From IMG/VR virus record IMGVR_UViG_3300031841_001583, positions 1 through 44,378 of that record: a stretch of 44,378 bases of DNA, one strand, 5' to 3'. The DNA is from a virus. Its lineage: Duplodnaviria; Caudoviricetes. The notes beneath the pieces were generated by a model, which was not told the origin of the DNA, did no database searches, and was given only the letters and a program-made list of their open reading frames with translations. Both the position numbers and the translations under genes were made by a program. Every line of letters begins with the position of its first letter. Position 1 is the stretch's first letter. Positions 19,868 to 38,401 of this stretch are shown here, piece after piece.

Positions 19868-19885
19868 TCTGGGGGTGGCCCCCCC
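19868..19885 (-). promoter_or_regulatory. Putative phage RNAP promoter (late), variant GGGGGGGCCACCCCCAGA
   Basis: One-mismatch copy of the repeated motif, in the intergenic gap ahead of the structural module. Confidence 0.65.
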
Positions 19886-26397: not shown

Positions 26398-26847
26398 TCA
26401 GTTCTGGGGTTGGCCCCCCACTTTGCTCCACCATTCCAGAACATCGAATGATGGGCACGCCTTGTTCACATTGGGCATGTCCCTGTGTCCCAGCACAGTA
26501 GCGTCCGGGTATAGGTTGCGCAGGTCCTTGACCAATGATTCGAGTGCCTTCCATTGAAAGGCAGTGTAGTTACTCTCGGGTGTCTTCCCGTTAGATTCCA
26601 CCCCACCAACCATGCAGATGCCGAGGCTGATGTGGTTGAAACCACGCACGTGTGCGCCGGGTACATCGTGAGGTCGACCCTTCTGTACTTCCCCGTCCCG
26701 AGTTATCACAAAGTGGTAGCCGACATCCATCCATCCTTTCTGCCTGTGCCACCTCCGTATGTCCTCGACTGTGAAGTTCTGGTCTTCCTTCGTTGCTGAA
26801 CAATGGATCACGATGTACTCCACTGCCTTCAGCTTCTTCCAGTTCAT
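26398..26847 (-). CDS. N-acetylmuramoyl-L-alanine amidase (T7 lysozyme gp3.5-like)
   Basis: IVIHCSAT, GYHFVI, GAHVRG, GHRD and KACPSF motifs. Confidence 0.96.
   Translation of the reverse strand: MNWKKLKAVEYIVIHCSATKEDQNFTVEDIRRWHRQKGWMDVGYHFVITRDGEVQKGRPHDVPGAHVRGFNHISLGICMVGGVESNGKTPESNYTAFQWKALESLVKDLRNLYPDATVLGHRDMPNVNKACPSFDVLEWWSKVGGQPQN
26403..26419 (-). promoter_or_regulatory. Putative phage RNAP promoter in the 3' end of the amidase gene
   Basis: GGGGGGCCAACCCCAGA; precedes the primase/polymerase cluster. Confidence 0.65.
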
Positions 26848-28313: not shown

Positions 28314-28331
28314 TCTGGGGTTGGCCCCCCC
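28314..28331 (-). promoter_or_regulatory. Putative phage RNAP promoter (middle genes)
   Basis: GGGGGGGCCAACCCCAGA directly followed by SD and ATG. Confidence 0.7.
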
Positions 28332-28997: not shown

Positions 28998-31418
28998 TTA
29001 GGCGAAGAAGAAGTCGGCATCACGCACCTCCTCAAGGTCAAGGTCGCCTGCGTCTGGCGGTGTGGGTAGGTCAGGCCACTTGTCACCCGGCAGTGCCAGC
29101 AGTGTCGACTGGTACGTACGGGTGAGGATGTCCTCCGAGTACAGCTTGATGAACTCATCACGTATCACGTAGTGCAGCTCATCCACGTCACAGGCATGGA
29201 CTCCGAACGAGTCATGGATCATGGCCGTGTTAGGTGTGATGCCCTCGTCGTACAACCTGTTCACCACCATCATCAGATGGGTAGCATCCAGTGAGTGTAC
29301 GAAGTTGGGAGCCACACTCGACGCTTGCTTGCGTCCGTCGATGGTCCTGCTCTCCACCCTCAGCGTCAGCCTGATGCGCTGGCCTTGGAACCAGACCTTG
29401 AACAGCTGACCCTTCGCCTTGCGGTACGGCTGTACCACAGGGAACCCGAGTGGTGTGACCCACGAGGTCGGTATCTCCTCGGCGGTGAGTGCCTTGGCCA
29501 CCAGCTTGAGCCAGTCCATTGCCTCAGCCGCACGCTTGACGACCTGCCTGATGGCAGCCTCGACGATGGGTGCGAGGAACAAGGCAGCTGCCCAGTTCTC
29601 ATGCCCCGGCAGGTACTGACCGTCAGTCTGCTTGCGCATCTCACTGGCGATCTGATCCCTGATCCCGACACTCGTCACCGAGTATGCGAAGGTCATGCAC
29701 GGACGCTTGACGATCTTGCGATCCACCTTGTCCATCCACACCTTAGCAAGCGGGTCAGAATTTTCTGCCAGCATATCCTGCACCACACCCAGCACCTCGG
29801 TGTAGATGTCCGAGGGTTGGTCGAGCTTGGTCAGGTTGACAGCACGTCCACCCTCACTGTCACGCAGCATGGCGCTGAAGTGCTGGATGCCAGAGCATGA
29901 CCCGTCCATTGCGATGGGCAGGTGAGACACGTAGTCATCACCCTCGATCTGGAAGCCAGCCCACTCGAAGCATGCGGCCAGCGCACACCACGGGTCGTCA
30001 GCCTTGGCCCAGAACCTGTCGCCATCGAGCGGGTTGAGTGCGCTGTCGAGTAGCTTGTCCGACTGCGTGATCGTCCACTCCACCCGGTCATCGAACGATA
30101 CCTTGTCGACACCGAACAGGTTGGCGATCTGCACTGCCAGCCAGTACCCACCAGTCTCACCGAGTGCCTTGCCGTTGCCGAATTCAATCAGGCTCTTGGC
30201 AATGTCATCACCCTGCGGTGACAGCTCGGTCGTCATGGAGTACACCCGACCACGGAAGTCCAGCGAGTGCGGGAACCAGATAGCTTCCTCATCTCGCACG
30301 TCCTGTGCCATGTTCAGCTTGGTGATGAGTGCCAGTCGCTTGCTCTTAAGCTGACCGTTGAACTCATGCACCTGCCGTGCCGCCTGCTTCCACTCGTTGA
30401 ACGTGGCACGCATGTCCTCCGGCATGTCATCGGGACTGCACTTGCGGTCGATAGACTCAGGCCGCTCGGGCAGTGCCAAGTCGTCAGCCTGTGGCAGGCC
30501 ACCGAGAGTACCACCCTCGTCGTACACTGACTGCATGACATCAAGCACACCAGTATTGATGCGCCACGGTGTCGACTGCACCCTGTTCACGGCACGGTAC
30601 ACCTCGGGCATGTCACAGCTGAACACCTCGTCACGTGTGGCCTGCCCTACGCCACGCACCAAGTCAGTCTTCATGCGTGGTGTCAGGTATCCTCCCGAGA
30701 TGGGAGAAGTCCAAGGCTTAGGCGGCGCGATCATCGGCTTGTTCACTGGACGCTCACCTTCAAGGCTTGCGTGTCGTGAGGCCAGACGCTCGGCTGCCAG
30801 CTCAGTCATCTCGATCAACTTGAAGGTCATCTTGCCCTCTTGTGTCTCGACCAGCTGCGCCAGCCCCGTTGTCTCGATGTACAACTCGACCAGCTTGACA
30901 CCCAGCTTCAATTTTTCACCCTCACTCCAGCCCATCGTGGCCACACCTGCTACCTGTGCTGCCTTGCGCATGATGCGACGACGTGCCCCGCTACTGCTCC
31001 ACTTCTGTGCCTTGCGGGACATGCTGTTGGCCAGTGCAGGTTCAGCCTGCTCCAGTTCCTCGAACCTGTAGTCCTCCTCGATCAGGTTCGCAATCTGCAT
31101 TGCGGTACGGGTCAGCTTGCCCCGGTTCACGGATGCCGACACCACCACCTTGCTTGCGATGTATGCGATGGCATCTGCCTTCATGCCTACCATGTACTGA
31201 TAGGCCAGTGGTACCTGCGATGGCAGGTTGCCGTTGCCTCCCTCCTCAAGGCGGGCAATGTTCCCTTCGATAGCAGGGATCAACGCCTTCATCCCTACAT
31301 ACACAAGACCCAGTCCAGCAGTAGTCTCTCCGGCACCCTGCTTGCTAACCTCACGGTGATACCTTCTAACACCTTCATCTAACTGGGTTAATTCTCTCAT
31401 CTCTTGACGTTCAGTCAT
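28998..31418 (-). CDS. Single-subunit T7-type DNA-directed RNA polymerase
   Basis: DFRGRVY, motif A DGSCSGIQH, motif B RKIVKRPCMTFAY, APNFVHSLDA and motif C IHDSF; 806 aa. Confidence 0.98.
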   Translation of the reverse strand: MTERQEMRELTQLDEGVRRYHREVSKQGAGETTAGLGLVYVGMKALIPAIEGNIARLEEGGNGNLPSQVPLAYQYMVGMKADAIAYIASKVVVSASVNRGKLTRTAMQIANLIEEDYRFEELEQAEPALANSMSRKAQKWSSSGARRRIMRKAAQVAGVATMGWSEGEKLKLGVKLVELYIETTGLAQLVETQEGKMTFKLIEMTELAAERLASRHASLEGERPVNKPMIAPPKPWTSPISGGYLTPRMKTDLVRGVGQATRDEVFSCDMPEVYRAVNRVQSTPWRINTGVLDVMQSVYDEGGTLGGLPQADDLALPERPESIDRKCSPDDMPEDMRATFNEWKQAARQVHEFNGQLKSKRLALITKLNMAQDVRDEEAIWFPHSLDFRGRVYSMTTELSPQGDDIAKSLIEFGNGKALGETGGYWLAVQIANLFGVDKVSFDDRVEWTITQSDKLLDSALNPLDGDRFWAKADDPWCALAACFEWAGFQIEGDDYVSHLPIAMDGSCSGIQHFSAMLRDSEGGRAVNLTKLDQPSDIYTEVLGVVQDMLAENSDPLAKVWMDKVDRKIVKRPCMTFAYSVTSVGIRDQIASEMRKQTDGQYLPGHENWAAALFLAPIVEAAIRQVVKRAAEAMDWLKLVAKALTAEEIPTSWVTPLGFPVVQPYRKAKGQLFKVWFQGQRIRLTLRVESRTIDGRKQASSVAPNFVHSLDATHLMMVVNRLYDEGITPNTAMIHDSFGVHACDVDELHYVIRDEFIKLYSEDILTRTYQSTLLALPGDKWPDLPTPPDAGDLDLEEVRDADFFFA

Positions 31419-31492: not shown

Positions 31493-31510
31493 TCTGGGGT
31501 TGGCCCCCCC
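31493..31510 (-). promoter_or_regulatory. Putative phage RNAP promoter upstream of the RNAP gene
   Basis: GGGGGGGCCAACCCCAGA, intergenic. Confidence 0.7.
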
Positions 31511-32774: not shown

Positions 32775-33158
32775 TCACACCTTCCCCGCAGTCGTGATGA
32801 CCCGCATGATTTCGTCCTCGGTCACTGCACCCTGCACCTCGCGCAGCTTGGCCAGCAGTGCGTGGATCACGAGCCTCTGGTTCTCGTGTGCTTCCTTCAG
32901 CTTGGCCAGCTCGTCCGGGTCCTTAGCCTCGGCCTGCTCGCACATCTCCTGCACCTCACTGATCTCACCCAGCTCGCGGTAGTCCTCAAGCTCACGGAAG
33001 TCATCGTCGAGGTAGTTCACCTCACGTTCGAGGTCCCCGAACATGCTGCCGATCTCGTTGATCTTGTCGTTCACATCCTCAAGCGTGGTGCTGCCGAGGT
33101 CGTTGATTGCGTACTCAAGGTCGCCCATCTTGTTGGTCACGTCGTCGTAGTTGCTCAT
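32775..33158 (-). CDS. Early acidic coiled-coil protein
   Basis: 127 aa, very D/E-rich, GAGGAG SD. Confidence 0.7.
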   Translation of the reverse strand: MSNYDDVTNKMGDLEYAINDLGSTTLEDVNDKINEIGSMFGDLEREVNYLDDDFRELEDYRELGEISEVQEMCEQAEAKDPDELAKLKEAHENQRLVIHALLAKLREVQGAVTEDEIMRVITTAGKV

Positions 33159-33349
33159 GCTTTTTCTCCTCGTGCGATTGCGTTACGTTCTTCGAGTACC
33201 CGTACCCACTTGCTCTTGGGTTGCTCGGGTATATGGTTGGTGATCTCAGGTTGCAGGACACCCATCGGCAGCCAGCCTTTGTTCTCGCCGTAGTACCCAG
33301 CGACCTGCCCCGTTGCGCGGTTGATGTGTGTTGTCTTTGTGATCCTCAT
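33155..33349 (-). CDS. Early hypothetical protein
   Basis: 64 aa, AGGAG SD, ATGA coupling. Confidence 0.6.
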   Translation of the reverse strand: MRITKTTHINRATGQVAGYYGENKGWLPMGVLQPEITNHIPEQPKSKWVRVLEERNAIARGEKA

Positions 33350-33690
33350 GCTACTACTCCTACGATTGAATCGCCAAGGTCCTCGATGCTCAGTACCCGC
33401 ACGTCAGGTGCGTGTTCCCAATCATTCTGGTACCAGTGAATCAGTTTGTACAGCCGACCGAGTGCCGCGTCGTCTGCGATGACGGTCAGCGTGACCCGTC
33501 CCGTGATGTTACCCTTCGAGTCACCGAAGCGTGCTTCACTGTCACGCTTGAGGTCCCCGAGTCCCTGCTTGGTGACGGCACGCATCAGGCGTATGACTGT
33601 CACCTTGATGGACTTCGGCTCGCACTCCAGCTCACCGTAGTGACCCAGCTCGTAGTCCTCTTGTGTTACCTGTACTTTCACGATGTTCAT
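33346..33690 (-). CDS. Early hypothetical protein
   Basis: 114 aa, GGAG SD. Confidence 0.65.
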   Translation of the reverse strand: MNIVKVQVTQEDYELGHYGELECEPKSIKVTVIRLMRAVTKQGLGDLKRDSEARFGDSKGNITGRVTLTVIADDAALGRLYKLIHWYQNDWEHAPDVRVLSIEDLGDSIVGVVA

Positions 33691-34310
33691 GCTTGCTCTC
33701 CCGGTATGTCCAACAGATAGATGTAGTGCCTGCGTGATACGTCCTCGCCACCCTCAAAGGTACCGACTCGGTCATTCACATGCTCGCACCAGTCGTCCCA
33801 CAATTTCTCACTCCCGCCACATGCCTCGATCAGTGCGAGGTAGACCGCGATCTTGTCGTCGATCTCACGCATCTGCTTGGCCGTGTCCTTGTACGTCCGC
33901 ACACTCCAGACGCCCACGTCCAGCCCGAACCGCTCGACGTTGTGCATGTCGAGGCAGCCTGACTTGCCCGTCAGTAGCTGCACGAGGAAGCCTGCTTTCG
34001 GCAGCCCCAGTCCCGGCACCTTCAGGAACTCACGCATCAGGTCAGCAGTGCTGAGTCGTCCTGCCCGTGCGTCCCGTGTCGCAGCATACAGTGCCTTGCG
34101 ATTGTCTCGCAGGTACACGTAGCCCGCCTGCTTGAAACCCCACAGGCACTTCGACTTGCTCCCGTGTACCTGCACGTCGGCCATCTGATTGCCCACTCCG
34201 ACCCACTGCATGCGGATCGAGAGCAGCACCATCGTGCCCACTCGCAGGAACTTGTCGGGGTTCTTACACCACGCTTGTATGCGTGCCTGATCGGTGCTAA
34301 ACATCAGCAT
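33687..34310 (-). CDS. Helix-hairpin-helix protein, DNA glycosylase/lyase-like
   Basis: FLKVPGLGLPKAGF...CLDMH matches the HhH plus downstream Asp pattern. Start is 34310 or 34304. Confidence 0.6.
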   Translation of the reverse strand: MLMFSTDQARIQAWCKNPDKFLRVGTMVLLSIRMQWVGVGNQMADVQVHGSKSKCLWGFKQAGYVYLRDNRKALYAATRDARAGRLSTADLMREFLKVPGLGLPKAGFLVQLLTGKSGCLDMHNVERFGLDVGVWSVRTYKDTAKQMREIDDKIAVYLALIEACGGSEKLWDDWCEHVNDRVGTFEGGEDVSRRHYIYLLDIPGEQA

Positions 34311-34539
34311 CTCCCGTCCATTTCCATTCACGTGACTCACCGTCACGCACCCAGTAGCTGTCGACCTTGTCGCCTATGCTCAGGACGCAGTAGTTCATGC
34401 TGTCCCATGCGTAGTGCGCGACCACCTTGTGCAGGTACGTCACCTCGCCAGCCTTGATCGTGTGCTTGGCCGTGCGGGTCGTCGACTCGCTGTCACTCCA
34501 CGTGTCCGCGAAGTACTCCATCGTCAGGCGTATGCCCAT
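34297..34539 (-). CDS. Early hypothetical protein (80 aa) downstream of hammerhead E
   Basis: ATG at 34539; its GAGGAG SD overlaps the ribozyme core. Confidence 0.65.
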   Translation of the reverse strand: MGIRLTMEYFADTWSDSESTTRTAKHTIKAGEVTYLHKVVAHYAWDSMNYCVLSIGDKVDSYWVRDGESREWKWTGDADV

Positions 34540-34547
34540 CGCAATCT

Positions 34548-34611
34548 CCTCATCAGCGTGCCTCGTATCGTCAGGCACGTACGCCCTGTGGAAGCGGCGT
34601 TTCGGTAACGT
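34548..34611 (-). ncRNA. Hammerhead ribozyme E (type II)
   Basis: ACGTTA-CC-GAAA-CGCC..GGCG-TA^-CGTGCCT-GACGATACG-AGGCACG-CTGATGA-GG; GUA cleavage after 34580. Confidence 0.85.
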
Positions 34612-34614
34612 CCT

Positions 34615-34632
34615 TCTGGGGTTGGCCCCCCC
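34615..34632 (-). promoter_or_regulatory. Putative phage RNAP promoter within the early region
   Basis: GGGGGGGCCAACCCCAGA immediately upstream of hammerhead E. Confidence 0.7.
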
Positions 34633-34635
34633 TCC

Positions 34636-35067
34636 CTATCCGGTGATGTCCTCACTCACGAACGGTCCCCCGCAGCAGTCGCACGGGCACTCACGTGCTA
34701 CCTTGCTCGCGATGAAGTCGACCGTGTCGTCGAGCGTGTAGCCCAGCAGCATGCCCAGCTCGTATTGCAGGCGCGAGCGGCTGATCCTGCCCTCTTTGCA
34801 GTCGAACACGAGGTCCGTGCCCAGTCGCGCCGGGTTAGTCTCACCCGGTACGATGTTGCGCCGTCCGATGAAGGCATGCTCGTGAAGCAGACCGTCCTCG
34901 CACCGTAGCATGGCCAGCTCAACCCACAGGTTGCTACGCTCGGCCATCATCACGATTGTCTCGTATGCGAGCGTCGACTTGCCCTCGGACACGATCATCA
35001 GCGGTTTCTCACCGTCATACACGTCCACGTATGCGCACATGCAGTCGTCGTAGTATGTCCTATCCAT
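34636..35067 (-). CDS. Early hypothetical protein (143 aa), Cys-rich C-terminus
   Basis: MDRTYYDDCMC...LGMLLGY...CPCDCC; GGGAG SD. Confidence 0.65.
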   Translation of the reverse strand: MDRTYYDDCMCAYVDVYDGEKPLMIVSEGKSTLAYETIVMMAERSNLWVELAMLRCEDGLLHEHAFIGRRNIVPGETNPARLGTDLVFDCKEGRISRSRLQYELGMLLGYTLDDTVDFIASKVARECPCDCCGGPFVSEDITG

Positions 35068-35323
35068 TTTCCACTCCCATTGCCGTGTTGACGGCATCCA
35101 GTGCGCCCTCGACCCACTCACTCAGGTACGATACAGGCGTGTTGCGTTTCAGGTTCATCAGGCGGCGCAGGTGCGTCGACACCTTGCGTCCACGTGACAT
35201 CGTCATGCCCTTGGCTTCGAGCCGAAGCGCATGCTTCCATTGTAGCAGCTGCCACGCGGATACCGTGATCGTGTCACCACGGTCGTTGTACTCCAGCTGC
35301 ACGGGCACGACTGCGGCCCTCAC
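35060..35323 (-). CDS. Early hypothetical protein (87 aa)
   Basis: GTGA coupling; ALRLEAKGMTMSRG. Confidence 0.65.
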   Translation of the reverse strand: MRAAVVPVQLEYNDRGDTITVSAWQLLQWKHALRLEAKGMTMSRGRKVSTHLRRLMNLKRNTPVSYLSEWVEGALDAVNTAMGVENG

Positions 35324-35445
35324 TTGCGGCCTGCCTTCCAGATGAACCGGAGCAGTGCTACGTACGCGGGAAGCAGGAACACGAGGCAGAACCAGACTGC
35401 CGCGATTGTCTGCGTGTTTGCGATGTTCGCGAGATTGTTTTCCAT
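35320..35445 (-). CDS. Small membrane peptide (41 aa) downstream of hammerhead D
   Basis: MENNLANIANTQTIAAVWFCLVFLLPAYVALLRFIWKAGRK; GAGG SD supplied by the ribozyme core. Confidence 0.6.
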   Translation of the reverse strand: MENNLANIANTQTIAAVWFCLVFLLPAYVALLRFIWKAGRK

Positions 35446-35452
35446 GTCATTT

Positions 35453-35512
35453 CCTCATCAGCGCATGCCGTATCGTCGCATGCGGACCTGCCGGAGCAGG
35501 TTTCGGTCACGT
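35453..35512 (-). ncRNA. Hammerhead ribozyme D (type II)
   Basis: ACGTGA-CC-GAAA-CCTGC-TCCG-GCAGG-TC^-CGCATGC-GACGATACG-GCATGCG-CTGATGA-GG; GUC cleavage after 35485. Confidence 0.88.
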
Positions 35513-35863
35513 GTACCGGGTGTCGATGTCGCTGTCGTGCGGGTAGTCGATCTGCCGTGGATCGTTAGGCGCGGGAGGCAGGATCGTCCAGACCCAGCGA
35601 CGTTCTGGCGTGCCGTCGTCATTCACGCCCATGTGCCATTCGCCCGAGCAGAAGCATACCCACGTATCCGGGTAGCGATAGCTGTACGAATCCTCACCGA
35701 TGCCCACGCCTGCGTCGTGATGAACCGTCACTTCCGAGTCGGTCCCGAACCCGCGTGGCTCGAAGTCGACGGGCAGGTACTCCGAGGTCCAGTCGATGCA
35801 CCTGCGAGTGTCGATCTGCTCGCCCCTGCGACCCGTCGCGGGATCGAACTTGAACACCTTCAC
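35507..35863 (-). CDS. Early hypothetical protein (118 aa)
   Basis: GAGG SD; its TGA stop lies in the 5' tail of hammerhead D. Confidence 0.65.
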   Translation of the reverse strand: MKVFKFDPATGRRGEQIDTRRCIDWTSEYLPVDFEPRGFGTDSEVTVHHDAGVGIGEDSYSYRYPDTWVCFCSGEWHMGVNDDGTPERRWVWTILPPAPNDPRQIDYPHDSDIDTRYT

Positions 35864-36084
35864 GCCAGCACCTCACGGGCGACGGTGTCCAGCCAGCTTG
35901 CGCGGAAGTCGATCAGCGCCCCGCACGTGCCCGGATTGTCCATGCTCGTGTACCGCGATTTGATCCGGTCACTGCCCTCGTACACGTGAGCCGTCAGGTG
36001 CGCCGTGCGCGTCCTGCGATTCGTGTTGGTCACGCACTCGATGCGGAACCCGTGCGGCAGCTTCACCGTATGCACGCGCCTCAC
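35860..36084 (-). CDS. Early hypothetical protein (74 aa)
   Basis: GTG start overlapping the upstream stop; GAGG SD. Confidence 0.6.
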   Translation of the reverse strand: MRRVHTVKLPHGFRIECVTNTNRRTRTAHLTAHVYEGSDRIKSRYTSMDNPGTCGALIDFRASWLDTVAREVLA

Positions 36085-36242
36085 GCCAGCACCTCGTACG
36101 CCTGTACCGAGCGGGTTGCGATGTCCAACCATTCGAGGTCGCCGTGCGGGAAGTCGATCACCTGCGCGGTGGGCGATTCGAGCGTGATCGTTTCGGTGAT
36201 TTCACTCACCTGCGTGGGTGTTACCGTTTTGCGATTTTCCAT
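36081..36242 (-). CDS. Early hypothetical protein (53 aa) downstream of hammerhead C
   Basis: Manual translation MENRKTVTPTQVSEI...YEVLA; GAGGAG SD overlaps the ribozyme core. Confidence 0.6.
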   Translation of the reverse strand: MENRKTVTPTQVSEITETITLESPTAQVIDFPHGDLEWLDIATRSVQAYEVLA

Positions 36243-36250
36243 GATTTTCT

Positions 36251-36314
36251 CCTCATCAGCGCGTGCCGTAAAGTCGCACGCGGACGGCCCGTGGAGGCAC
36301 CGTTTCGGTCACTT
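36251..36314 (-). ncRNA. Hammerhead ribozyme C (type II)
   Basis: AAGTGA-CC-GAAA-CGGTGCC-TCCAC-GGGCCG-TC^-CGCGTGC-GACTTTACG-GCACGCG-CTGATGA-GG; GUC cleavage after 36283. Confidence 0.88.
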
Positions 36315-36461
36315 GGCGGCCAGTCGCGCATTCCGCTTGGCCACGATGTCGCACGTGAGGTCGTGCAGGTATGAACCCTTCGCGGGTATCCGTGACGGCG
36401 TGCGAGCCGCCTTGCGTGCCAGTCGCGACGTGGCCGCATTGGCCCAATTCAGGCGACTCAC
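36309..36461 (-). CDS. Early basic hypothetical protein (50 aa)
   Basis: GTG start overlapping the upstream TGA; MSRLNWANAATSRLARK...; stop lies in the tail of hammerhead C. Confidence 0.5.
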   Translation of the reverse strand: MSRLNWANAATSRLARKAARTPSRIPAKGSYLHDLTCDIVAKRNARLAAK

Positions 36462-36604
36462 GAGCGTGCCAGCTTGGCGCGACGGTCATTCTCGGCACGC
36501 AGCGCGACCCAGTCGACATTCGAGCGTGCGCGGGTATCTGCCAGTGTTTCGGCGGCGTAGCGTGCGCGGGTTTGCACGCGGTGACTGCTATTCGATTTTG
36601 CCAT
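36458..36604 (-). CDS. Early basic hypothetical protein (48 aa) downstream of hammerhead B
   Basis: MAKSNSSHRVQTRARY...; GAGG/AGGA SD. Confidence 0.55.
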   Translation of the reverse strand: MAKSNSSHRVQTRARYAAETLADTRARSNVDWVALRAENDRRAKLARS

Positions 36605-36612
36605 TTTCCTAT

Positions 36613-36687
36613 CCTCATCAGCGTGCCCGATACGTGGGACACGGACGCGACACCCCGCATGTGCAGGGTGCGCGTTTCGGTCACGTG
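36613..36687 (-). ncRNA. Hammerhead ribozyme B (type II, long stem III)
   Basis: CACGTGA-CC-GAAA-CGCGCACCCTGCA..TGCGGGGTGTCGCG-TC^-CGTGTCCC-ACGTATC-GGGCACG-CTGATGA-GG; GUC cleavage after 36644. Confidence 0.85.
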
Positions 36688-36876
36688 TTACGCGGTTTTC
36701 TTGGCCTTCGCAGCGGGTGCGAGCGCCTTGTTGCACCAGTCCTCGACTGCACGCATGTGATTCGCGACTGCCTTCGGCACGTCCAATTCGACCGACTGCA
36801 ATGCAATCGCGGCCTTGCGATTCTTGGCACGTGCGGACAGGATTGCGCTGCGAGCTTCATTCGTGAGATTTGCCAT
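36688..36876 (-). CDS. First early protein (62 aa, basic, Ala-rich)
   Basis: GGAG SD; flanked by hammerheads A and B. Confidence 0.65.
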   Translation of the reverse strand: MANLTNEARSAILSARAKNRKAAIALQSVELDVPKAVANHMRAVEDWCNKALAPAAKAKKTA

Positions 36877-36894
36877 GATAATTCTCCAATTTTA

Positions 36895-36953
36895 CGTAGT
36901 TTCGGCCTGCTGGGCCTCATCAGGCGCACGATACGATCCAGTGCGCTACTACG
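36895..36953 (-). ncRNA. Hammerhead ribozyme A (type III)
   Basis: CGTAG-TA^-GCGCAC-TGGATCGTATC-GTGCGC-CTGATGA-GGCC-CAGCA-GGCC-GAAA-CTACG. All three stems are perfect; GUA cleavage after 36947. Confidence 0.93.
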
Positions 36954-37320
36954 CTCACATGCAACACTTGCGCGGTACACTTCCGACCAAAATCCATTCA
37001 AGGCAGGCGCGGAATTCTCGCACATGTGCCATGTGAGCGGGTTACACGTGGTTTCCAATGTTTCGGCCCAGTGTCCAGATCGTTTCACCCCGTAGGCATT
37101 CTCACCTCCCGTACGCGGGTTTCCCAGACACGTGAACTCTCACGTGATAGCGGCTTAATTCGCGGGTGCCGTGTTTCCAGTCGAATGCGCTGGAGCATAT
37201 TCCCGTATCCCATCGCGACCGTTCTGAATGCGGGCATTCCGCAAAGCTCAATTCCCGGTCTGGGACGGTCGACGGTAGCGGCTTGGAACCCTTCGGCCAA
37301 GAATCTGCTGGCCGTCGACG
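36947..37320 (-). ncRNA. Candidate large structured leader / ncRNA
   Basis: No convincing SD-led ORF; many inverted repeats and T-loop-like motifs; bounded by a sigma70-like promoter and hammerhead A. Confidence 0.5.
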
Positions 37321-37326
37321 ATTCAA

Positions 37327-37355
37327 ACAATGGACCTGCCGCCGAATTATTGCAA
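37327..37355 (-). promoter_or_regulatory. Putative host sigma70 early promoter
   Basis: TTGCAA-17 nt-CATTGT with an A-rich upstream tract. Confidence 0.5.
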
Positions 37356-37428
37356 GCCTTTTTTGGAAATAAATGGCCGATTGCCGCTAAGTGACTGAAT
37401 TATGGGCGATTTTAGATTGGAAATAAAT

Positions 37429-37890
37429 GGCACCCTGCCCGAATTCTGGCCGAATTCCCGCTATTTTCCGGCACCCTGCCCGCTATCAGGCACCCTTTCC
37501 GGCACCCTTGCGCACCCTTTCCGGCACTATCAGGCACCCTGCCCGCTATCCTGCCCGGTATCCTGCCCGGTACCGTGCCGGGTGCCGTGCCGTCGACTGG
37601 TAGCACCCTGCCCGCTATCGTGCCGGGTGCCGTGCCGGGTGCCGTGCCGTCGACTGGTAGTCTACTGGGAGTGGCCCCCCGTCGACTGCCGGACTTTTTC
37701 CCGCGTATATATAGTGTCGACAAAAAAACATATCGGGTGCCGGGTGCGAGTGCCGTACAGGATAGCGTGCCGTGACTGCCCGTCGACGTGCCGTGCCTGC
37801 CGGGTGCCTGATAGTGAACGTACCGGGTGCGAGCGGGTGCCGCGTGCCGGGTGCGCATTAGGTTCGCGGGCAGGGTAACGGGCAGGTCTG
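37429..37890. repeat. Array of short GC-rich repeats near the presumed left genome end
   Basis: Recurrent GCACCCTGCCCG, GTGCCGGGTGCC and GTCGAC units; position analogous to T7 terminal short repeats. Confidence 0.8.
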
Positions 37891-38008
37891 GCCCCCCGCG
37901 ATACGCGCATAGGAAGGAGGCACGGGGGCCACTGCGGCGTGTCCACGTAATGAACCCCGTTCAGATAACTATAGCAAAACTTTGAGGCTCTCCTCTGGTG
38001 TCACACCA

Positions 38009-38161
38009 TCACACTGCAAGTAACTCTCTGATGTCCTCAAGTTTGTCGAGGATGTCCTTCAAGTCATCGTGCAGGTCCATAAGGCACTCGTGCATCTCCT
38101 CTGCTTCCACTCGGGCCGCAAAGGTAGCAGGAAGTGCCGGGTAGTGAGGATCATGTGCCAT
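38009..38161 (-). CDS. Hypothetical protein (50 aa) near the presumed right end
   Basis: AGGAGG SD; MAHDPHYPALP...RELLAV. Confidence 0.6.
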   Translation of the reverse strand: MAHDPHYPALPATFAARVEAEEMHECLMDLHDDLKDILDKLEDIRELLAV

Positions 38162-38199
38162 AATAGCCTCCTGTTCCTCTAAGTCTCCTCTGAAATGAG

Positions 38200-38312
38200 C
38201 AGTACCTTTAAGGAGGTAGTAGGATAAGGAATAAGGGTAAGTAACCCTTACCAGTACCCTCTTAGTTCTCTATTAGTTATCTCTTAGTTACTTATAGTGT
38301 CATTATAGTTCT
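38200..38312. other. AT-rich low-complexity tract (candidate origin or packaging region)
   Basis: Repeated TTAGTT/TATAGT units and the inverted repeat TAAGGG..CCCTTA, downstream of a promoter-like motif (phiOR-like position). Confidence 0.45.
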
Positions 38313-38321
38313 ATCCTGCCC

Positions 38322-38339
38322 TCTGGGGTTGGCCCCCCC
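38322..38339 (-). promoter_or_regulatory. Putative phage RNAP promoter (phiOR-like position)
   Basis: GGGGGGGCCAACCCCAGA after the terminase gene. Confidence 0.7.
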
Positions 38340-38343
38340 TCCC

Positions 38344-38356
38344 TATCAATGACTTA
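38344..38356 (+). promoter_or_regulatory. IHF consensus site
   Basis: TATCAATGACTTA matches WATCAANNNNTTR; 4 bp from the motif. Confidence 0.55.
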
Positions 38357-38401
38357 GCGGAGGGAAGGCTATAACCTGCGGACAGGGTGCCTAAAGGAAG
38401 G

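What the first reader, a model, noticed from the sequence alone, without database searches (positions are those of the whole stretch)
35443..36314. Ribozyme cores are fused with translation signals (natural RiboJ-like insulators)
Seen: in all four type II copies CUGAUGA-GG-A creates GAGG(A/AG) about 7-9 nt before the next ATG, so the SD is part of the catalytic core and stem II. In C and D the upstream gene's UGA stop is the UGA of the 5' tail (36309-36311, 35507-35509); in B the stop sits directly before the tail. Inference: cleavage frees the SD and gives each downstream mRNA a standard 5' end (5'-OH, 7-bp hairpin, SD). Ribosomes terminating upstream or initiating downstream could compete with folding, coupling cleavage to translation. 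Established: 5'-OH and hairpin ends are poor substrates for 5'-monophosphate-dependent RNase E decay.
Basis: partly seen in the sequence, partly recalled or inferred. Interest (0 to 1): 0.75.

Follow-up and report, generated by a model that had tools for sequence, protein, structure and literature searches.

The report
Phage ribozymes with built-in ribosome sites
Four hammerhead-type RNA motifs sit between the early genes of a T7-like phage, each with the next gene's ribosome-binding signal inside its own catalytic core, and they likely cut the long early message into pieces that each begin with a hairpin and an open ribosome site; whether cutting controls translation is untested.

Summary
All four type II hammerheads (B-E, minus strand, early region of a T7-like phage) read CUGAUGA-GG-A with ATG 6-7 nt after GAGGA, so the Shine-Dalgarno (SD) is core G8-A9 plus stem II. 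The stops of C and D are the tail UGA.

New here: the stabilising pseudoknot joins loop I to the 5' tail, not the published 3' tail. It is Watson-Crick in 39 of 40 homologues, with compensatory changes. In scans blind to the start codon, 42 of 48 such ribozymes use the core as their only SD, against 7 of 144 other type II hammerheads that also carry GAGG.

The regulatory part is weak. Stem II is 2 bp; predicted SD gain on cleavage is a median 0.6 kcal/mol (pseudoknot not modelled); upstream stops abut other type II hammerheads just as often (97 of 134). Best reading: a compact, portable, constitutive cut-and-initiate module.

Clustered phage type II hammerheads have been known since 2011, and this scan noted SD-in-core on other genomes before. 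I found neither the SD overlap nor the 5'-tail pseudoknot in print. No RNA data. New variant of a known kind; interest 0.5.

The parts
36612..36686 (-). Type II hammerhead B: 5' pseudoknot tail 36686-36683, stem II CC, GAAA 36678, predicted cleavage after C36644, 7-bp stem I 36643-36622, core 36621-36615, SD GAGGA 36616-36612
36458..36604 (-). 48-aa ORF behind B, ATG 7 nt after GAGGA; no PHROG match
   Evidence: 98% identical copy in L036
36309..36461 (-). 50-aa ORF upstream of C (GTG start overlapping the previous TGA); its last codon and TGA stop form the pseudoknot tail of C
   Evidence: homologues at 58% (L159) and 50% (L010) identity
36250..36314 (-). Type II hammerhead C: tail AAGU 36314-36311 pairs with loop ACUU 36274-36271, GAAA 36306, predicted cleavage after C36283, core 36259-36253, SD GAGGAG 36254-36249
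36081..36242 (-). 53-aa ORF behind C, ATG 7 nt after GAGGA
   Evidence: homologues at 59-61% identity aligned from residue 1, also behind ribozymes (L184, L231)
35507..35863 (-). 118-aa ORF upstream of D; its TGA stop (35509-35507) is the tail UGA
   Evidence: homologues at 51-70% identity
35452..35512 (-). Type II hammerhead D: tail 35512-35509, GAAA 35504, predicted cleavage after C35485, core 35461-35455, SD GAGGA 35456-35452
35320..35445 (-). 41-aa hydrophobic ORF behind D, ATG 6 nt after GAGGA
   Evidence: 44% identical homologue behind a ribozyme in L159
34547..34611 (-). Type II hammerhead E: tail 34611-34608, GAAA 34603, predicted cleavage after A34580 (GUA), core 34556-34550, SD GAGGAG 34551-34546
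   Evidence: compensatory C-G to A-U change in stem I (34574/34562) in runs X2, X4 and locus L001
34297..34539 (-). 80-aa ORF behind E, ATG 7 nt after GAGGA
   Evidence: in L001 the spacer is 2 nt longer and the ATG is kept
34615..34631 (-). Repeated element directly upstream of E's tail; inferred phage-polymerase promoter, untested
   Evidence: 8 matches in the window against 0.34 expected; same element at matching places in L001
36894..36954 (-). Context: type III hammerhead A, followed by a separate SD and the first early gene (36876-36688); the copy closest to the RiboJ layout
28998..31418 (-). Context: T7-type RNA polymerase gene that closes the early region
   Evidence: PHROG 414, E 4e-235; best named phages 33-41% identical

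Best explanation
These are type II hammerhead motifs whose loop I is complementary to the 5' tail and whose core nucleotides G8-A9-G10.1-G10.2-A form the only SD-like site of the next gene; they likely cleave constitutively and so would cut the phage's early transcript into units that each start with a 5'-OH, a 7-bp hairpin and an open SD. Shown by sequence and comparison: the core, stems I and III, a 2-bp stem II, the covarying 5'-tail pseudoknot, the fixed SD-to-AUG spacing, and reuse of the module in front of many different genes. Inferred: moving the pseudoknot strand to the 5' side leaves the 3' side free of structure, so no separate SD is needed and the whole gap from stop to AUG shrinks to about 65-85 nt. 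Cleavage separates the tail from loop I and the two strands of stem II, so the products should part and stay parted. Ribosomes at the stop or at the SD must unfold the active site while present, but since cleavage is one-way this most likely only delays it. The role would resemble that of RNase III sites in T7 early RNA, without a host enzyme.
For: Pseudoknot pairs 1-3 are Watson-Crick in 40, 40 and 39 of 40 fused copies; pair 3 is G-C 17, U-A 15, C-G 7; slid registers give 0-12 of 40; shuffled tail-loop partners give a mean of 27% and at most 50% against 97.5% observed. Independent count on 19 aligned copies: 96% of cells paired, 7 of 7 stem I pairs with double changes, one pseudoknot pair with double changes in 7 sequences. 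Start-codon-blind set of 192 GG-bearing type II hammerheads: core used as only SD in 42 of 48 with the 5' pseudoknot against 7 of 144 without; by locus 25 of 29 against 6 of 118. A separate downstream SD of -6.5 kcal/mol or better is present in 11% of 44 against 64% of 135. The 40 fused copies precede 21 protein clusters, ATG at 9-11 nt after CUGAUGA in 32 of 40. Genes move between having and lacking a ribozyme, and contigs join across ribozyme copies. Clustered type II hammerheads cleave in vitro and in E. coli (PMC3088659 section text) and in vivo in Desulfovibrio vulgaris (PMC8782182 abstract and passages).
Against: No cleavage, expression or RNA-end data for these copies. In 2D models the lowest-energy fold of all four window copies differs from the hammerhead fold by 1.7-4.6 kcal/mol through tail mispairing, so activity depends on the unmodelled pseudoknot. 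The link between 5' pseudoknot and SD fusion is not exclusive: 6 of 48 have the pseudoknot call but no core SD, and a scan selected for ATG found 17 new core-SD users in other subclasses (13 with 4-bp stem II, 4 with 3' pseudoknot). Most 5'-pseudoknot copies come from one phage group that my patterns targeted, so the counts are not independent origins; only one other group was shown (G003, G004 lack the T7-type polymerase). A hairpin close upstream of an SD lowered expression in a synthetic twister construct, and 5' cleavage there did not seem to alter mRNA stability (PMC5052635 passages).
Confidence: 0.62

Rival explanations
1. Cleavage-gated translation with ribosome-timed cleavage: the folded precursor hides the SD well enough that the next gene is translated mainly after cutting, and ribosomes ending the upstream gene set the cutting rate.
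For: All five SD bases are engaged in the active fold (core geometry). In C and D the pseudoknot strand is the last sense codon plus the U of the stop, so a terminating ribosome must open it. The 2D gain on cleavage is small but consistent in sign (Wilcoxon p 9e-5, n 40), and the pseudoknot is left out of that figure. Synthetic SD-masking ribozymes give 5- to 100-fold effects (PMC5052635).
Against: Stem II is 2 bp (+0.8 kcal/mol closure) against an SD:anti-SD duplex of -6.1 to -9.4 kcal/mol. Gain is 2 kcal/mol or more in only 5 of 40. Stop position is not fixed: 11 of 37 at -3, 15 of 37 at -6 to -13, the rest farther off, reading in, or uncalled; the same abutment occurs in 97 of 134 non-fused copies. 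E has no stop near its tail. Real tails mispair less than shuffled tails (median gap 1.7 vs 2.0 kcal/mol), so there is no built-in off fold.
Confidence: 0.2
2. Pure compaction without expression benefit: the hammerheads are there for processing or spread as semi-selfish repeats, GAG(G) is a by-product of the core, and the separate SD was simply lost by deletion once the core could stand in.
For: GAG is obligatory in the core and GG is the commonest pair of bases after it even in non-fused copies found without a GG seed (23 of 57). The flanking A is structural (140 of 179). Homologous genes are found without any ribozyme in this very window. T7 grows without RNase III processing (PMC6938266 passage).
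Against: Spacing is held at 9-11 nt in 32 of 40 copies across 21 protein clusters, which needs selection at least on SD use; stems and pseudoknot covary, which needs selection on the fold. This rival differs from the best explanation only in whether cutting itself helps expression.
Confidence: 0.13
3. The motifs are inactive or rarely active in cells and persist mainly as hairpin-plus-SD leaders.
For: Below Rfam gathering score; alternative 2D folds are predicted for all four.
Against: The catalytic core, the A15.1-U16.1 pair and a GUC/GUA site are kept in 40 of 40 copies, and stem III covaries although it is useless to a leader.
Confidence: 0.05

Closest known systems
Clustered type II hammerhead ribozymes of phages and prophages (Perreault et al. 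2011, PMC3088659; Rfam RF02276)
   Same: Same core and topology, short stem II, a loop I pseudoknot, several copies flanking single genes or short gene blocks, proposed to cut long phage transcripts into gene-length mRNAs.
   Different: The published consensus pseudoknot uses the 3' tail and stays on the 3' product; here it uses the 5' tail and is split by cleavage. In my 3'-pseudoknot and 4-bp stem II sets the SD is mostly separate and the start lies 18-40 nt after the core; here the core is the SD and the start lies 9-10 nt after it. The main text has no 'Shine', 'RBS' or 'stop codon'; its type II alignment could not be seen.
RiboJ insulator (sTRSV hammerhead plus 23-nt hairpin; as described in PMC6206723)
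   Same: Self-cleavage removes upstream sequence and leaves an identical hairpin-bearing 5' end ahead of the RBS. Copy E may sit right behind a promoter, as RiboJ does.
   Different: RiboJ is synthetic, placed at a promoter junction, and its RBS is separate and downstream. Here the SD is inside the core and three of four copies are intercistronic.
Synthetic SD-masking ribozyme switches (hammerhead and twister designs, as described in PMC5052635)
   Same: SD lies within ribozyme structure and is released by cleavage.
   Different: There the SD is buried in a designed helix and an aptamer controls cutting; here only 2 base pairs and core contacts hold it and no sensor domain is apparent.
RNase III processing sites of phage T7 transcripts (PMC6938266 passages; the early-region sites are recalled from Dunn and Studier 1983)
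   Same: Intercistronic cuts in the polycistronic RNA of a T7-type phage.
   Different: Host enzyme and double-stranded substrate, 5'-phosphate ends (recalled), against self-cleavage with 5'-OH and cyclic phosphate ends.
[quoted passage not shown]
   Same: Natural link between self-cleavage and translation initiation.
   Different: Eukaryotic, cap-independent, type I hammerheads; no SD involved.

Membership tests
Type II hammerhead ribozyme | Conserved core CUGANGA, GAAA and NUH site | tested here: met
   All four copies, GUC x3 and GUA x1; 40 of 40 homologues GUC or GUA
Type II hammerhead ribozyme | Stems I and III closed by loops, stem II open at the 5' and 3' ends | tested here: met
   covariation in stems I and III
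Type II hammerhead ribozyme | Site-specific self-cleavage | not testable with these tools
   No assay possible; no RNA run available
Rfam RF02276 / published 3'-pseudoknot type II consensus | Score at or above gathering threshold | tested here: not met
   C scores 32.6 against 37 bits; B, D and E not reported
Rfam RF02276 / published 3'-pseudoknot type II consensus | Pseudoknot between loop I and the 3' tail (a majority feature, not part of the type II definition) | tested here: not met
   3'-side complementarity only 2-3 nt in the four copies; the 5' tail pairs and covaries instead
RiboJ-type insulator | Ribozyme at the promoter junction | tested here: inconclusive
   Only E follows a repeated promoter-like element; promoter function untested
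RiboJ-type insulator | RBS separate from and downstream of the ribozyme and an added hairpin | tested here: not met
   SD is within the core; RiboJ layout from PMC6206723
RiboJ-type insulator | Same 5' end regardless of upstream sequence | tested here: met
   By sequence, if cleavage occurs: hairpin then 15-19 nt to AUG in 36 of 40 copies before 21 protein clusters
RiboJ-type insulator | Measured insulation of expression from upstream context | not testable with these tools
   Needs reporters
SD-masking ribozyme switch | SD held in a stable helix before cleavage and free after | tested here: not met
   2-bp stem II; median 2D gain 0.63 kcal/mol, 2 or more in 5 of 40; pseudoknot and tertiary energy not modelled
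SD-masking ribozyme switch | Ligand-sensing domain controlling cleavage | tested here: inconclusive
   No Rfam family at gathering score in the window; stem III loops vary freely in length and sequence

The most novel reading that the evidence does not exclude
A natural two-way coupling device: the pseudoknot strand lies under the ribosome that terminates the upstream gene and the catalytic core is the next gene's SD, so upstream translation times the cut and the cut licenses downstream translation, ordering early-gene expression with RNA alone.
Probability: 0.2. Interest if true: 0.78.

Novelty: new variant of a known kind. Interest (0 to 1): 0.5.

Why it matters
The purpose of self-cleaving ribozymes between phage genes is an open question: a 2019 review calls their roles in bacteria largely elusive and lists processing of polycistronic RNA as a suggestion (PMC6765202 passages). 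This subclass ties the ribozyme physically to translation initiation, gives about 40 natural variants with covarying pseudoknots, and offers a clean test, because catalysis can be killed without touching the SD. It also shows a structural trade: putting the pseudoknot strand on the 5' side frees the 3' side for a ribosome site. If active, it is a ribozyme-plus-RBS part of about 65-85 nt, where RiboJ (75 nt) still needs a separate RBS.

Tried and rejected
Rfam at gathering score: no hit in the window. Named phage records: no DNA match to 33000-38000 and only one weak partial match to copy C. GTDB genome scan: 74 pattern loci, none passed the descriptor. Sequencing runs: no RNA holder listed, which says nothing about expression; four DNA runs were laid instead. 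PHROGs: no family for 13 of the 15 early-region ORFs tested, including all four behind ribozymes. Sigma-70 scan: no promoter on the coding strand in 33000-38400. Idea that the 5' tail is a built-in anti-fold that a terminating ribosome relieves: masking the tail restored stems I and III in B, D and E, but across 40 copies real tails mispair less than shuffled ones, so rejected. Idea that SD fusion is exclusive to the 5'-pseudoknot class: rejected. Idea that the tail UGA is kept because it is a stop: rejected as the main cause; of 26 fused copies with a stop triplet at -5..-3, 11 have fewer than 40 open codons before it, and my patterns imposed GTGA on the seeded hits. The first MAFFT alignment of 35 copies misaligned several stems, so pair counting used 19 of them and an anchored count of all 40. 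The simple upstream-gene caller mis-called window copy C and its twin in L036. Literature searches listed no paper on SD-in-core hammerheads or on a 5'-tail pseudoknot; the library lacks most subscription journals, and the type II alignment in the Perreault supplement was cut from the stored file, so such sequences may be in that dataset.

Full report
Setting. The window is a 44,378-base virus record with a T7-type RNA polymerase at 28998-31418 (PHROG 414, E 4e-235), terminase, major head protein and head-tail adaptor; the nearest named phages are only 33-41% identical in the polymerase. The finding lies on the minus strand among the small early genes between about 36900 and the polymerase.

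Observation. A descriptor requiring GAAA, a closed stem III, UH, a closed stem I, CUGANGA and at least one stem II pair returned four hits on both strands of the window, all here: B (GAAA 36678, site 36644), C (36306, 36283), D (35504, 35485) and E (34603, 34580). Each has a 7-bp stem I and a 2-bp stem II (CC/GG). A type III copy, A, lies upstream at 36894-36954. After the core each reads GG-A, giving GAGGAU, GAGGAG, GAGGAA and GAGGAG, with ATG 7, 7, 6 and 7 nt after GAGGA. SD:anti-SD energies against an E. coli-type anti-SD (recalled motif; host unknown) are -6.1 to -9.4 kcal/mol. B has a second AGGA only 2 nt before its ATG and D a second ATG 1 nt after GAGGA; both are too close for normal use. 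The stops of the genes before C and D are the tail UGA, B's stop ends one base before the tail, and E's is about 33 nt away.

What it is. Perreault et al. 2011 (PMC3088659; I read the abstract, passages and one part of the main section) describe type II hammerheads flanking phage genes, show cleavage of such arrays in vitro and in E. coli, and give a consensus pseudoknot between loop I and the 3' tail. In the window the 3' side does not pair with loop I; the 5' tail does (ACGU with ACGU in B, AAGU with ACUU in C, CGU with ACG in D and E). I collected relatives by pattern scans and ran the descriptor with stricter cut-offs over 461 loci plus the window, which gave 179 distinct type II hammerheads. 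Forty-three have GG after the core and an ATG with an ORF 6-14 nt after CUGAUGA; I set aside three with a 4-bp stem II and short loop (two in L455, one in L063) and examined 40. In these 40, chosen by start codon and not by pseudoknot, the first three tail-loop pairs are Watson-Crick in 40, 40 and 39 cases; pair 3 is G-C 17 times, U-A 15 and C-G 7; pairs 1 and 2 also switch in 8 and 4 copies; sliding the register gives 0-12 of 40, and shuffling partners gives 27% on average and at most 50%. A separate count on 19 well-aligned copies gave 96% paired cells, double changes in all 7 stem I pairs and in one pseudoknot pair (related sequences inflate such scores). A close relative shows a direct C-G to A-U swap in stem I of E.

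Is the SD overlap selected? GAG is obligatory in the core, and the A after stem II is structural: A opposite A flanks stem II in 140 of 179 copies of every subclass. What is not automatic is the start codon. With a classifier blind to the 3' side, 39 of 44 5'-pseudoknot copies have ATG plus ORF at 6-14 nt, against 7 of 135 others and 26 of 242 non-ribozyme CTGAYGAGG sites. Adding a scan that forces GAGGA but not ATG, the core is the only SD in 42 of 48 with the 5' pseudoknot and 7 of 144 without. The others mostly carry a separate SD, with starts 18-40 nt after the core. Limits: my patterns were aimed at this subclass; most copies come from one phage group (G001 has a polymerase 68% identical), with a second group lacking that polymerase (G003, G004); and a scan selected for ATG found 17 new core-SD users in other subclasses. 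So the 5' pseudoknot nearly always goes with SD fusion, but fusion also arises without it.

Portability. The 40 copies precede 21 protein clusters. Window genes at 36084, 35067, 34304 and 33690 have no ribozyme here, yet homologues at 48-80% identity sit directly behind one in L208, L220, L159 and L212; the first early gene follows type III copy A with a separate SD here and a fused type II copy in six other loci. Contigs in run X3 join across ribozyme copies (35487 to 36295, 36286 to 36673), which may reflect rearranged relatives or chimeric mapping at low likeness.

How it most likely works. In the folded hammerhead G8 pairs with C3, A9 with G12 and G10.1 with C11.1 (PMC11300833 passages), so every SD base is engaged and a bound 30S subunit excludes the active fold. 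Inferred: after cleavage stem III and the tail are on the 5' product and stem I, core and SD on the 3' product, held only by 2 + 3-4 base pairs, so they should part. The upstream mRNA keeps its stop and ends in a hairpin; the downstream mRNA starts with a hairpin and 15-19 unpaired nt before AUG (36 of 40). Predicted opening cost of SD-to-AUG after cleavage is a median 2.8 kcal/mol, against 2.8-6.7 for nine ordinary starts in this region. A 3'-tail pseudoknot, which forms even without the other strand, would stay on the mRNA and cover this stretch, which explains why those copies need a separate SD.

Testing the regulatory claim. Stem II closure is +0.8 kcal/mol in 2D, and opening the SD costs 0.8-1.8 before and 0.9-2.0 after cleavage in the four window copies. 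Across 40 copies the gain is a median 0.63 kcal/mol, 1 or more in 14 and 2 or more in 5. These figures omit the pseudoknot and Mg2+-dependent contacts, so gating is not excluded. Upstream stops end at -3 in 11 of 37 fused copies (an undercount by two mis-calls) and at -6 to -13 in 15, but they end at -2 to -8 in 97 of 134 non-fused type II copies too: abutment is general tight packing. Real tails do not favour an off fold. On stability the papers I saw disagree: RiboJ raised mRNA about twofold and protein two- to tenfold (PMC6206723 passages), 5' cleavage by a twister did not seem to change stability in E. coli (PMC5052635 passages), and glmS cleavage leads to decay (PMC6765202 passages). That 5'-OH ends resist RNase E's 5'-end pathway is recalled knowledge and was not tested.

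Known or new. It is a type II hammerhead by core and topology, outside the published 3'-pseudoknot consensus and below Rfam's threshold. It works like RiboJ in giving a standard 5' end but is not a RiboJ-type part. Seven searches listed no paper on the SD overlap or the 5'-tail pseudoknot; PMC10085705, PMC13725137 and PMC8782182 were checked by passages and do not describe it; the Perreault type II alignment was cut from the stored supplement. Earlier notes of this scan report SD-in-core hammerheads on other genomes; none of the lines shown mentions a 5'-tail pseudoknot, and no look-alike of copy C was on record. These notes are unchecked and I did not count them as support.

Verdict. Real and conserved, a new variant of a known kind. 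Constitutive cut-and-initiate module 0.62, cleavage-gated translation 0.2, neutral compaction 0.13, inactive 0.05. Interest 0.5.

Noticed in passing
window 38325-38338, 34618-34631, 31496-31509, 28317-28330, 26406-26419, 19871-19885 (minus strand): A G-run/C-run element recurs 8 times with up to 2 mismatches (0.34 expected), in intergenic positions, and at matching places in L001; probably the phage polymerase promoter. It could also form a small hairpin. One copy ends about 14 nt before GAAA of ribozyme E.
   Followed up: partly
L100 and L101 (one contig): At least 17 tandem type II hammerheads of the 3'-pseudoknot kind, one before almost every small gene, each with a separate SD about 10 nt further on.
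   Followed up: no
134 non-fused type II hammerheads: The upstream stop codon ends 2-8 nt before GAAA in 97 of them, often supplying the conserved A that flanks stem II or a stem II base.
   Followed up: partly
L519:603, L523:658, L554:378, L594:604, L649:645: Type II hammerheads with a 4-bp stem II whose 3' strand is GGAG or GGAU and an ATG 7-12 nt after the core; the SD is more deeply paired than in the window, so these are better candidates for cleavage-gated translation.
   Followed up: no
L390, L437, L583, L588, L611, L636, L642, L659, L660: A second family with a 5'-tail pseudoknot; some copies have ATG 6-7 nt after the core, others (L588, L611, L636, L642) have none in range, so pseudoknot side and SD use can be uncoupled.
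   Followed up: partly
L159:1632: The homologue of the gene upstream of C has no stop in the tail and appears to read into stem III of the ribozyme.
   Followed up: no
window 37402-37946: Low-complexity, repeat-rich stretch between the terminase gene and the early region, as expected near a genome end of a T7-type phage.
   Followed up: no
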